DNA of 10,007 nucleotides from a virus. Position numbers and translations under genes: made by a program. The stretch lies in UHGV virus genome UHGV-1346345; one strand, written 5' to 3'. A model generated the notes under the pieces. The model was not told the DNA's origin, made no database searches, and worked only from the letters and a program-made list of their open reading frames with translations. Shown piece after piece: positions 2,042 to 2,545 of the stretch; within the stretch, counting starts at the first letter, position 1; each line of letters starts with the position of its first letter.

Positions 2042-2545
2042 ATGGATTGGTCACATTATTTCGTTTATGACGAAAACAGCGGCAATTTAATCTGGAAGGT
2101 AAAACCGTGCGACAACGTTATGATCGGTGATGTCGCAGGGTATATGGAACGCGACGGCTATATTAGGGTAAGACTTCACAAGCGCGGTTATCCGGCGCAT
2201 TGCATCATATGGGAAATGCACAACGGCCCGATCCCGAATGGTTATCAAATAGACCATATTGACCACGTGCGAAGTAATAACAGGCTTAATAATTTGCGCC
2301 TTGTTACACACAAGGAAAACCAAAGAAACCAAAAACTACATAAAAGAAATACAAGCGGGTTTTCTGGAATTTATTGGGAAAAAGCAATGAATAAATGGCG
2401 CGTTCGTATCATGGGTAATAACGGTGAACGTTTGACCATTGGTTATTTTGAAAACAAGGATGATGCTGTGGTGGCAAGGAATAAGGCTTACGCTGATTTG
2501 GGGTATTGTGAAAATCATGGGGTGAGTCATGAAGTCAACCAGTAA
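2042..2545 (+). CDS. HNH endonuclease with C-terminal AP2-type DNA-binding domain
   Basis: 167 aa with GAGGTGA upstream. HNH motif GYQIDHIDHVRSNNRLNNLRLVTHKENQRN, then AP2-like SGFSGIYWEKAMNKWRVRIMGNNGERLTIGYFENKDDAVVARNKAYADL. Confidence 0.85.
   Translation: MDWSHYFVYDENSGNLIWKVKPCDNVMIGDVAGYMERDGYIRVRLHKRGYPAHCIIWEMHNGPIPNGYQIDHIDHVRSNNRLNNLRLVTHKENQRNQKLHKRNTSGFSGIYWEKAMNKWRVRIMGNNGERLTIGYFENKDDAVVARNKAYADLGYCENHGVSHEVNQ

What the first reader, a model, noticed from the sequence alone, without database searches (positions are those of the whole stretch)
2042..2545. HNH-AP2 endonuclease inserted between terS and terL
HNH endonucleases associated with terminases usually sit beside the terS/terL pair, not between the two genes. 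This one has an AP2 DNA-binding domain typical of mobile homing-type HNH enzymes, and its 3' end overlaps the terL start. It may be a mobile insertion, a packaging cofactor, or both. It is also a second nuclease-type element in the same structural region as the intein-associated endonuclease.
Basis: partly seen in the sequence, partly recalled or inferred. Interest (0 to 1): 0.45.

Follow-up and report, generated by a model that had tools for sequence, protein, structure and literature searches.

The report
Homing endonuclease gene between terminase genes
A small selfish nuclease gene (HNH cutting domain plus AP2 DNA-binding domain) sits in the 11-base gap between a phage's two DNA-packaging genes; related phages lack it, so it is an ordinary mobile homing endonuclease and not part of the packaging machine.

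Summary
ORF 2042-2545 (+, 167 aa) encodes an I-HmuI-like HNH_3 nuclease with a C-terminal AP2 fold. It lies between an Sf6-type terS (1529-2029) and terL (2529-4016) and overlaps terL by 17 nt.

The window is an mEp021-like (mEpimmI) E. coli temperate phage. All 7 isolated relatives, 23 of 33 matching prophages in complete E. coli genomes, and all but one of the informative IMG/VR TerL loci have terS and terL abutting with no gene between. One contig (L092) has the same flank type but only an 11-nt spacer, which defines a ~488-bp insertion (about 2029-2516).

The gene has no terminal repeats and is 42% GC against 50% for its neighbours. Its phylogeny disagrees with that of its flanks. It is under strong purifying selection (dN/dS 0.05-0.11). 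Paralogues occupy other sites in the same phage group.

It is unrelated to the packaging HNH of HK97 (gp74, PF01844) and has no CxxC zinc dyads.

Best reading: a free-standing homing endonuclease gene, a new member of a known kind. A packaging-cofactor role is not supported but is not excluded experimentally.

Side note: the nearby intein carries a conserved antisense ORF, which deserves its own study.

The parts
1529..2029 (+). terS, small terminase subunit (166 aa), Sf6 type
   Evidence: Pfam PF20901 E=7.8e-37; phrog_1482 E=2e-48. Intact (166 aa) in all HNH-bearing loci checked.
1930..2029 (+). Left flank: the 'type A' TerS C-terminal tail (residues 135-166). DNA homology to mEp021-type phages stops at 1929/1930.
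   Evidence: Same blastn break point in mEp021, mEp013 and MagusPhagus. Protein alignment: identical up to G134, then a different tail. Prophages share only terS 1530-1930 and then carry another tail and another TerL. GC 42%. A type A-like tail occurs in distant TerL relatives without any HNH.
2029..2516 (+). Inserted segment relative to the empty-site allele L092 (about 488 bp; boundaries uncertain by a few bases). It replaces or splits an 11-nt terS-terL spacer.
   Evidence: Alignment A4. L092 reads terS TAA + GGCGGTAAATC + terL ATG. In the window, 499 nt separate the terS stop from the terL ATG. No terminal direct or inverted repeats.
2031..2036 (+). Shine-Dalgarno-like GAGGTG, 5 nt before the HNH start codon
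   Evidence: Read directly from the sequence. No sigma-70-like promoter on the + strand in 1300-4200, so the gene is probably read from the late-operon transcript (inference).
2042..2545 (+). HNH-AP2 homing endonuclease gene (167 aa)
   Evidence: dN/dS 0.05-0.11 among orthologues. All orthologues checked are 167 aa except one A5-to-A4 frameshift copy.
2042..2326 (+). I-HmuI-like N-terminal beta domain plus the HNH_3 ('HNN') catalytic motif. The HNH_3 match covers residues 50-95. D71, H72 and N93 are invariant in the family.
   Evidence: Pfam HNH_3. Family profile against I-HmuI 1U3E, E=1.2e-8 over profile positions 1-113. In the phmmer alignment D71/H72/N93 line up with 'DH' and the last N of the I-HmuI motif. 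Invariant columns. Foldseek top hit 1U3E.
2354..2500 (+). AP2-type DNA-binding domain (residues ~105-153: three beta strands and one helix)
   Evidence: (weak).
2519..2545 (+). terL ribosome-binding site (GGGGTGAG) and first 17 nt of terL. Read in another frame, this stretch encodes the last residues (..GVSHEVNQ) and the stop of the HNH protein.
   Evidence: Sequence. Alignment with the empty allele, where this stretch is the native terL start region. The model has pLDDT below 50 for residues 162-167.
2529..4016 (+). terL, large terminase subunit (495 aa). Residues 1-24 (2529-2600) are the 'type A' N-terminus; DNA homology to mEp021 resumes at 2600/2601.
   Evidence: Pfam Terminase_6C E=1.6e-12; phrog_38 E=2.3e-93. 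Break point. Protein alignment.

Best explanation
The gene is a free-standing homing endonuclease gene of the HNH_3 ('HNN')-AP2 type, lodged in the 11-nt spacer between terS and terL of an mEp021-like temperate coliphage.

Proposed mechanism:
- It is transcribed with the late packaging operon and translated from its own GAGGTG site.
- The I-HmuI-like N-terminal/HNH module and the AP2 domain together recognise a long site at or near the unoccupied terS-terL junction of a related phage or prophage present in the same cell.
- The enzyme nicks or cuts that site. Recombinational repair then copies the endonuclease gene, and some flanking terS/terL sequence, from the occupied genome.
- The occupied allele is protected because the insertion splits the site.
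- The insertion is tolerated because it leaves terS intact. The 3' end of the HNH ORF runs across the native ribosome-binding site and start of terL, so terL expression is preserved.

Shown here: domain identity, conserved catalytic residues, the presence/absence polymorphism, the exact empty site, the separate evolutionary history, purifying selection, and paralogues at other sites.

Inferred only: cleavage activity, the target site, and homing itself.
For: (1) Domains. HNH_3 at E=3.5e-22. The family profile hits I-HmuI at 1.2e-8 and plant AP2 domains at 7e-6 and 6e-4. A confident model matches 1U3E and 1GCC. D71, H72 and N93 are invariant across 43 homologues. PADLOC matches only 'homing endonuclease' models.

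(2) Presence/absence. terS and terL are 2 nt apart in mEp021, mEp013 and MagusPhagus. All 7 phage records match in two pieces over a span about 520 bp shorter than the query. Of the 33 complete E. coli genomes with a match, 23 show a 1150-bp span against 1671 bp of query, and none has the insert. Only 1 of the IMG/VR TerL loci where the junction could be read has the HNH there.

(3) Empty site. L092 has the same TerS tail and TerL N-terminus (TerL 96% identical over residues 1-495) with just 11 nt between the two genes.

(4) Independent history.
- GC is 42% against 50% for the neighbours.
- HNH dS between sub-lineages is 1.6-2.4 or saturated, while the adjacent terS tail and terL 5' end give 0.4-0.5 for the same pairs.
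- L089 is close to the window in the terS N-terminal part (93%) and the terL body (90%), but far in the HNH gene (73%) and the junction flanks (76-81%).

(5) Maintained function. dN/dS is 0.05-0.11, and the 7 sequences translated are all 167 aa.

(6) Family behaviour.
- 2560 of 50,697 phage records hold a homologue, some at up to 6 places per record.
- Paralogues (41-52% identical) occupy other sites in the same phage group: upstream of terS in mEp013, and two sites in L109 and L155.
- All homologues at or above 73% identity are at this one junction; the next best is about 52%. One lineage is therefore tied to one site.

(7) No transposon-type ends. No intron or other Rfam family in the window.

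(8) Literature. N-terminal HNH plus C-terminal AP2 is a recognised homing endonuclease family, and such genes cluster near essential genes including terminase and mark boundaries of genetic exchange (PMC10448857). Dispersed HNN-AP2 genes are distinguished from fixed-position CX2C HNH genes (PMC2248197).
Against: No activity, target site or homing event has been shown for this protein or for any close homologue.

Strong, long-term purifying selection at one fixed site, with at least 12 occupied contigs against 1 empty for this junction type, could equally reflect a gene that has become useful to the phage.

The empty allele L092 falls inside the range of the occupied alleles in its flanks. It may therefore be a secondary loss and not a naive target. 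Its spacer is not an obvious product of deletion from the occupied form.

The divergence of the flanks from mEp021 is not caused by the endonuclease. The same flank type exists in distant relatives that have no HNH.

The single frameshifted copy (L172) is in an A5 run and may be an assembly error.
Confidence: 0.8

Rival explanations
1. Packaging cofactor. The HNH protein works with the terminase, as HK97 gp74 or Skunavirus HrdP do, to cut concatemeric DNA. It sits between terS and terL because it is part of the packaging module.
For: Its position is inside the packaging operon and it overlaps terL. It is under strong purifying selection comparable to terS and terL. It is found only with one type of TerS tail and TerL N-terminus, and at least 12 of 13 contigs with that junction type carry it. 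Essential packaging HNH proteins adjacent to terminase genes are known (PMC3592412; PMC12967558). Barth et al. note that the homing and packaging readings are not mutually exclusive (PMC10448857).
Against: It belongs to a different His-Me branch from gp74, which is PF01844: BLASTP E=1.2, hhalign probability 0.5%. It has no [CxxC]2 zinc site, the hallmark of the cos-associated HNH enzymes (PMC3592412); this is read directly from the sequence.

TerS is Sf6-type and TerL is Terminase_6C. These families are associated with headful packaging (my own knowledge).

Seven isolated phages with 84-89% identical terS/terL DNA lack the gene. L092, with a 96% identical TerL and the same TerS tail, also lacks it on a genome-length 53-kb contig.

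The AP2 domain gives the protein its own DNA-binding module.
Confidence: 0.06
2. Domesticated homing endonuclease. It originated as a mobile gene but is now kept because it benefits the phage. It might cut the terS-terL junction of competing related phages or prophages in the same cell (exclusion and preferential marker inheritance). Alternatively it might be hard to lose because its 3' end now carries the terL ribosome-binding site.
For: dN/dS is 0.05-0.11 over saturated synonymous divergence at one fixed site, with near-fixation within the junction type. The terL ribosome-binding site lies inside the HNH coding sequence. Neofunctionalisation of homing endonuclease genes in phage conflicts is documented (PMC10448857).
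Against: Purifying selection is also expected for an actively homing gene in a population where most related genomes are unoccupied. An empty allele with the same flanks and a working-looking spacer exists, so loss or absence is tolerated. There is no direct evidence of any benefit.
Confidence: 0.1
3. Ancestral gene. The HNH gene was originally part of this terminase module and was deleted in the other lineages. On this reading it is not an insertion.
For: The flanks of the empty allele L092 fall within the range of the occupied alleles, which is compatible with secondary loss.
Against: Four junction types were examined: mEp021-like, L117-like, H75-like, and the distant L133/L137 type that shares the window's flank type. 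All have terS and terL abutting with no HNH.

The gene has a lower GC content than its neighbours. Its homologues are scattered at unrelated sites in thousands of phages.
Confidence: 0.04

Closest known systems
I-HmuI (phage SPO1 intron-encoded HNH homing endonuclease; PDB 1U3E)
   Same: It is the only solved structure found by sequence (phmmer E=0.005; family profile E=1.2e-8 over profile positions 1-113) and the top Foldseek hit. It shares the N-terminal beta domain followed by the 'DH...N...N' His-Me motif without zinc-binding cysteines.
   Different: I-HmuI is encoded inside a group I intron, and its C-terminal DNA-binding part is helical (my own knowledge of the structure). The window protein is free-standing in an intergenic spacer and has an AP2 domain there instead. 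Sequence identity is about 20%. I-HmuI's nicking activity is known; none is known here.
HNH/HNN-AP2 free-standing homing endonuclease genes of phages (the family described by Magnani et al. 2004, as cited in PMC10448857 and PMC2248197; examples in T1, T5, Rtp, RB43 and Xanthomonas phages Xp10/OP1/Xop411)
   Same: Same two-domain architecture (N-terminal HNH_3, C-terminal AP2), about 160-170 aa, no CX2C dyads. The genes are free-standing between other genes, are often multicopy and variably present among close relatives, and are often near essential genes such as terminase (PMC2248197; PMC10448857).
   Different: This lineage (at least 73% identical copies) is tied to one precise site, the terS-terL spacer of mEp021-like coliphages. 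It overlaps the terL start, and one empty site is available for comparison. No close homologue has been characterised biochemically.
T4-type intronless homing (Seg and Mob endonucleases, e.g. MobE between nrdA and nrdB, SegB in the tRNA cluster)
   Same: A free-standing endonuclease gene sits in a short intergenic gap of an essential operon, is variably present among relatives, and is inherited together with flanking markers (PMC2988022; PMC2790892; PMC2330249).
   Different: The phage type differs (temperate siphovirus-like coliphage against T-even), and so does the protein family (Seg enzymes are GIY-YIG; MobE is an HNH without AP2). Homing has been shown for T4 but not here.
Terminase-associated packaging HNH proteins (HK97 gp74; Skunavirus HrdP)
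   Same: A His-Me nuclease gene adjacent to terminase genes in the late operon.
   Different: gp74 is PF01844. The cos-associated class is described as carrying a [CxxC]2 zinc site and lying next to the cos site (PMC3592412), and these genes are conserved at a fixed position. The window protein is HNH_3 plus AP2 and has no significant similarity to gp74. It is absent from most relatives, and it sits in an Sf6-type TerS system.

Membership tests
HNH_3/HNN-AP2 free-standing homing endonucleases | His-Me catalytic motif of the HNH_3 type (D-H ... N ... N) without zinc-binding cysteine dyads | tested here: met
   PF13392 at E=3.5e-22, 78 bits against a cut-off of 24.8. D71, H72 and N93 are invariant in 43 homologues and align with the I-HmuI motif. 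Cys occurs only at positions 23, 54 and 156, so there is no CxxC (sequence).
HNH_3/HNN-AP2 free-standing homing endonucleases | C-terminal AP2 DNA-binding domain | tested here: met
   The single-sequence Pfam hit is below the cut-off (E=0.0059, 17.3 against 33.3 bits). The family profile hits the AP2 domains of WRI1 (7e-6) and TEM1 (6e-4). The model has a beta-beta-beta-alpha fold at residues 110-153. It superposes on 1GCC over 50 residues at rmsd 1.5 A, probability 1.00.
HNH_3/HNN-AP2 free-standing homing endonucleases | Free-standing ORF that is variably present among close relatives, with a recognisable unoccupied site | tested here: met
   Absent from 7 phages, from all 33 matching complete E. 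coli genomes and from all but one informative IMG/VR TerL locus. Empty site L092.
HNH_3/HNN-AP2 free-standing homing endonucleases | Evolutionary history independent of the host genes (mobility) | tested here: met
   Incongruent identities between segments and contrasting dS values. Lower GC. Paralogues at other sites in the same phage group.
HNH_3/HNN-AP2 free-standing homing endonucleases | Site-specific cleavage of the unoccupied allele and gene conversion (homing) | not testable with these tools
   Requires biochemistry and phage crosses.
Terminase-associated packaging HNH (HK97 gp74 type) | PF01844-type HNH domain with a [CxxC]2 zinc site | tested here: not met
   No PF01844 hit at E<=0.01, while gp74 itself hits PF01844. 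BLASTP against gp74 gives E=1.2; hhalign gives probability 0.5%. No CxxC in the sequence.
Terminase-associated packaging HNH (HK97 gp74 type) | Conserved at a fixed position in all members of the phage group | tested here: not met
   most relatives lack it, including L092, which has the same terminase type.
Terminase-associated packaging HNH (HK97 gp74 type) | Associated with cos-type packaging, next to the cos site | tested here: inconclusive
   TerS is Sf6_terminase and TerL is Terminase_6C, which suggests headful packaging (my own knowledge). The packaging mode of mEp021-like phages was not found in PMC11893012 and cannot be read from the sequence.
Terminase-associated packaging HNH (HK97 gp74 type) | Stimulates or is required for terminase cleavage | not testable with these tools
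   Needs in vitro cleavage assays or a deletion mutant.
Insertion sequence / transposon | Terminal inverted repeats, target-site duplication, transposase | tested here: not met
   No repeats at the insert boundaries. The only ORF is the HNH-AP2 gene.
Intron- or intein-encoded homing endonuclease | ORF embedded in a self-splicing intron or an in-frame intein | tested here: not met
   The insert lies between the terS stop codon and the terL start codon. No Rfam family, including group I/II introns, reaches threshold in the window.

The most novel reading that the evidence does not exclude
The endonuclease is no longer purely selfish. It is wedged between the TerS tail and the TerL N-terminus, which in other phages are the two parts that contact each other (my own knowledge). 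It carries the terL ribosome-binding site inside its own coding sequence. On this reading it acts as a weapon or linkage guard for one terminase 'interface type': it cuts the terS-terL junction of competing related phages or prophages in the same cell and converts them to its own matched TerS-tail/TerL-N-terminus pair. Alternatively, it contributes a nick that helps this terminase type start packaging.
Probability: 0.1. Interest if true: 0.6.

Novelty: new member of a known kind. Interest (0 to 1): 0.27.

Why it matters
This is a clean natural example of a free-standing homing endonuclease gene in a temperate coliphage group that is reported as prevalent in the human gut (mEpimmI, PMC11893012). 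Occupied, empty and possibly decaying alleles are all available, and the insertion point is defined to within a few bases.

That makes the target site and homing directly testable with existing phages. mEp021, mEp013 and their relatives could serve as recipients, and the L092-type junction as the presumed cognate target.

It also warns annotators against labelling every HNH gene next to a terminase as a packaging factor.

Beyond that it is ordinary: the architecture, behaviour and genomic neighbourhood are all as described for this family.

Tried and rejected
(1) Transposon or IS-type boundaries: no terminal direct or inverted repeats at the insert ends.

(2) Regulatory RNA structure hiding the HNH or terL start: folds of both start regions and of the empty and mEp021 junctions are no more stable than shuffles (z-scores between -0.26 and +0.95).

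(3) Own promoter or terminator: no + strand sigma-70-like site in 1300-4200. One terminator-like hairpin at 2583-2604 lies inside terL, and terminator-like sites are not enriched over shuffles.

(4) Intron association: no Rfam hit and no tRNA in the window.

(5) The idea that the divergent terS 3' end and terL 5' end were created by the endonuclease (immunity changes or co-conversion from an exotic donor): rejected as a general explanation, because the same flank type occurs without any HNH in L092 and in distant TerL relatives. TerS residue ~134 is a general module boundary.

(6) Similarity to HK97 gp74: none.

(7) Defence-system models (PADLOC): only generic 'homing endonuclease' models matched.

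(8) The mEpimmI paper contains nothing on HNH genes, terminase or packaging mode.

(9) Scans for more empty junctions: only L092 in IMG/VR and none in the GTDB representative genomes with a strict pattern. The single metagenome hit was another occupied allele.

(10) A GGCGG (GCC-box-like) motif is present in the empty spacer and absent from the occupied junctions. I noted it as a possible AP2 contact, but it is a post hoc 5-mer and I give it no weight.

Full report
OBSERVATION

The window carries the late-gene module of a phage. It runs from lysis remnants through terS (1529-2029), the ORF in question (2042-2545), terL (2529-4016), portal (4074-), a MuF-type head morphogenesis gene (5409-) interrupted by an intein, and then further head genes.

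Pfam HNH_3 matches residues 50-95 at E=3.5e-22, and PHROG phrog_99 (HNH endonuclease) matches at E=5.7e-63. The AP2 claim was weak on the single sequence (E=0.0059, below Pfam's cut-off), so I tested it in three other ways:
- A profile of 43 homologues finds I-HmuI (1U3E) at E=1.2e-8 over profile positions 1-113. It also finds the AP2 domains of Arabidopsis WRI1 (7e-6) and TEM1 (6e-4) over positions ~93-150.
- An AlphaFold model built on that alignment is confident (mean pLDDT 85.7) and shows three strands and a helix at residues 110-153.
- Foldseek against the PDB returns I-HmuI first, then the AtERF1 GCC-box-binding domain (50 residues, rmsd 1.5 A), ERF96, WRI1 and TEM1.

Both domain assignments therefore hold. 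D71, H72 and N93 are invariant in the family and align with the I-HmuI motif. The HNH stop codon lies 17 nt inside terL.

The window is a scaffold with six 10-N runs that carry inverted-duplicate artefacts. None falls between 793 and 5091, and the same gene order was recovered on at least eleven other contigs.

The terS-terL region is 84-89% identical in DNA to mEp021, mEp013, mEp515, mEp044, mEp010, mEp554 and MagusPhagus. This is the 'mEpimmI' group of temperate coliphages (PMC11893012). In every one of these records the match comes in two pieces over a span about 520 bp shorter than the query. In the three I fetched, terS and terL are annotated 2 nt apart.

Thirty-three of 5,426 complete E. 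coli genomes carry a related terS and/or terL. In 23 of them both genes match over 1150 bp of record against 1671 bp of query, and none has the insert. Among 76 IMG/VR loci encoding TerL relatives, only one (L091, the same contig as L004) has the HNH in the junction.

DNA homology to the HNH-less phages stops at window 1929/1930 and resumes at 2600/2601 in all three relatives. So 671 bp in the window replaces about 150 bp in the relatives. Besides the HNH gene, the last 32 residues of TerS and the first ~24 of TerL are of a different type.

THE EMPTY SITE

One IMG/VR contig (L092 = L167, 53 kb) has the window's TerS tail and TerL N-terminus, with TerL 96% identical over residues 1-495. It has only 11 nt between the two genes. 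Aligned with four occupied alleles, it reads terS-TAA GGCGGTAAATC ATG-terL.

In the window, about 488 bp (about 2029-2516) is added. This comprises a new GAGGTG ribosome-binding site and the HNH ORF. The last residues and stop of the HNH ORF are read, in another frame, from the native terL ribosome-binding site and first 17 nt of terL. There are no terminal repeats, no intron or other Rfam family, and no separate promoter signal.

The window-type flanks are not a by-product of the endonuclease. Distant TerL relatives (68-70% identity; L133, L137) have a similar TerS tail and TerL N-terminus with the two genes abutting and no HNH. E. coli prophages such as H75 join the same TerS N-terminal domain to yet another tail and another TerL. 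TerS residue ~134 is thus a general module boundary, and the HNH was inserted into one pre-existing junction type.

THE HNH-BEARING LINEAGE

All homologues at or above 73% aa identity lie in this same junction in mEp021-like prophages or phage contigs. These are P0001-P0006 and loci L004, L084-L090 and L172-L174, from NCBI draft E. coli genomes, ENA, Logan and IMG/VR. The next best homologues are about 52% identical and lie elsewhere. In the loci where I translated all three genes, terS (166 aa), HNH (167 aa) and terL (495/496 aa) are intact.

The HNH gene is under strong purifying selection (pairwise dN/dS 0.05-0.11), comparable to terS and terL. Its history differs from that of its surroundings:
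- Between the window and L088, HNH dS is 2.4, while the adjacent terS tail and terL 5' end give 0.38 and 0.54.
- L089 is close to the window in the terS N-terminal part (93%) and the terL body (90%), but it is the most distant allele in the HNH gene (73%) and the junction flanks (76-81%).
- The HNH gene and the terS tail are 42% GC, against 50% for the rest of terS, terL and portal.

One contig (L172) has an A5-to-A4 frameshift that separates the HNH part from the AP2 part. This may be decay or a homopolymer error. For this junction type I count at least 12 occupied contigs and 1 empty.

FAMILY BEHAVIOUR

tblastn finds homologues in 2,560 of 50,697 phage records at 3,625 places, with up to 6 listed for a single record. 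Within the mEp021 group, paralogues (41-52% identical) sit at other sites. One is upstream of terS in mEp013, with the same HNH_3 plus AP2 profile. L109 and L155 each carry two more, one upstream of terS and one about 3.8 kb downstream of the terL start. From the contig coordinates, further copies lie roughly 10 kb or more from terL on the contigs that hold L005 and L007.

This matches published descriptions. N-terminal HNH plus C-terminal AP2 is a recognised homing endonuclease family, such genes cluster near essential genes including terminase, and they mark boundaries of genetic exchange (PMC10448857). Dispersed, variably present HNN-AP2 genes have been contrasted with single-copy CX2C-type HNH genes at a fixed position (PMC2248197).

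MECHANISM

The best-supported reading is intronless homing. The enzyme is expressed late from the packaging operon. It recognises the unoccupied terS-terL junction of a co-resident relative through its N-terminal and AP2 DNA-binding modules, then nicks or cuts it. Repair from the occupied genome copies in the gene and some flanking sequence. The occupied allele is immune because the site is split.

The insertion is tolerated because terS is untouched and the terL start region is preserved inside the 3' end of the HNH ORF.

The anatomy, the polymorphism, the independent history and the constraint are shown. The cleavage, the target and the homing are inferred. Whether the enzyme nicks (like I-HmuI) or makes a double-strand break is unknown.

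RIVALS

Packaging cofactor. HK97 gp74 is PF01844 and shows no significant similarity to the window protein. The window protein lacks the [CxxC]2 zinc site described for cos-associated HNH enzymes (PMC3592412). The terminase here is Sf6-type TerS plus Terminase_6C. Isolated relatives, and L092 with the same terminase type, do without the gene. An essential packaging HNH adjacent to terminase genes does exist in Skunavirus (HrdP, PMC12967558), so position alone proves nothing either way. I give this rival about 6%.

Domestication for competition or linkage. This cannot be excluded, given the strong constraint and the near-fixation within the junction type. I give it about 10%.

Ancestral presence with multiple losses. 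This is unlikely, because four other junction types lack the gene (about 4%).

COMPARISON AND NOVELTY

In fold the closest relative is I-HmuI. In architecture and behaviour the closest are the HNH/HNN-AP2 free-standing homing endonucleases of T1, T5, Rtp, RB43 and Xp10-type phages. In mode the closest is T4 Seg/Mob intronless homing. All sequence-testable defining features of the HNH-AP2 homing endonuclease family are met. The defining features of the packaging-HNH family that could be tested are not met.

This is a new member of a known kind. It is a tidy case, not a surprise. Its main value is practical: it offers a defined insertion point, an empty allele, and available recipient phages for a homing experiment.

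SIDE OBSERVATION

The 1,061-bp insertion at 6230-7290 relative to mEp021 is an intein in the MuF-type head gene. Embedded antisense in it is a 285-aa ORF (6376-7233, minus strand) with HTH-like repeats and a weak REase-like match.

This ORF has full-length homologues at about 50% identity in Vibrio, Pseudomonas, Klebsiella and Gordonia phages. In the Vibrio and Pseudomonas phages it again lies antisense inside a long annotated MuF CDS. In the Vibrio phage that CDS shows a split intein-splicing match.

Both strands being open over ~850 nt in distant phages suggests an endonuclease encoded on the opposite strand of an intein. That is more unusual than the HNH gene and deserves separate analysis.

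Noticed in passing
window 6230-7290 (intein region); minus-strand ORF 6376-7233; L169 2501-3343; L170 2501-3166: The intein inserted in the MuF-type head gene contains a 285-aa ORF on the opposite strand, with HTH-like repeats and a weak PF18741 REase match. It has full-length homologues (~50% identity) in Vibrio, Pseudomonas, Klebsiella and Gordonia phages. In Vibrio phage vB_VaM_H2 and Pseudomonas phage BR313c it again lies antisense inside the long MuF CDS, and in the Vibrio phage that CDS has a split intein-splicing match. Both strands stay open for ~850 nt, so this is a candidate antisense-encoded homing endonuclease within an intein.
   Followed up: partly
window 249-258, 783-792, 5092-5101, 6296-6305, 8053-8062, 9637-9646: There are six runs of exactly 10 N. 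Most are flanked by 18-42-nt reverse-complement copies of sequence lying roughly 240-570 nt away. This looks like an assembly or read-joining artefact, so local sequence and reading frames at these points are unreliable. That includes the start of the intein and the portal/MuF gene ends.
   Followed up: yes
window 1929/1930 (TerS residue ~134); L168 3500-5504: TerS has a recurrent recombination break point between its N-terminal domain and its C-terminal tail. The same N-terminal domain (87-96% DNA identity) is joined to at least four different tails, each with its own TerL N-terminus or a different TerL. This suggests the TerS tail and TerL travel as one interaction module.
   Followed up: partly
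L002 1931-2416 (mEp013_67); L109 and L155 at 418-897 / 7-417 and 6801-7268 / 6798-7268: Paralogous HNH_3-AP2 genes (41-50% identical to the window gene) occupy other sites in the lysis-to-head region of mEp021-like phages and are variably present. This phage group hosts several homing endonuclease lineages, each with its own site.
   Followed up: partly
L172 3001-3503 (Logan ERR3317656 contig, 52.8 kb): An orthologue 97% identical to the window gene is split into 115-aa and 52-aa ORFs by loss of one A from an A5 run. This is either a decaying copy or a homopolymer assembly error.
   Followed up: partly
window 452-766 and 793-1400: The ORF at 452-766 is the N-terminal part of a homologue of mEp021_49 / mEp013_66 (function unknown), cut by the N run at 783. 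Between it and terS lie only very short hydrophobic ORFs (24-47 aa). Parts of this stretch are conserved at 84-98% DNA identity in the relatives.
   Followed up: no
L168 5653-7023 (E. coli M15 prophage): RefSeq annotates the portal-position gene of this related prophage as 'anti-CBASS protein Acb1 family protein'. Its position after terL and its length match the portal gene of mEp021-like phages, so it may be a misannotation or a portal-fused domain.
   Followed up: no
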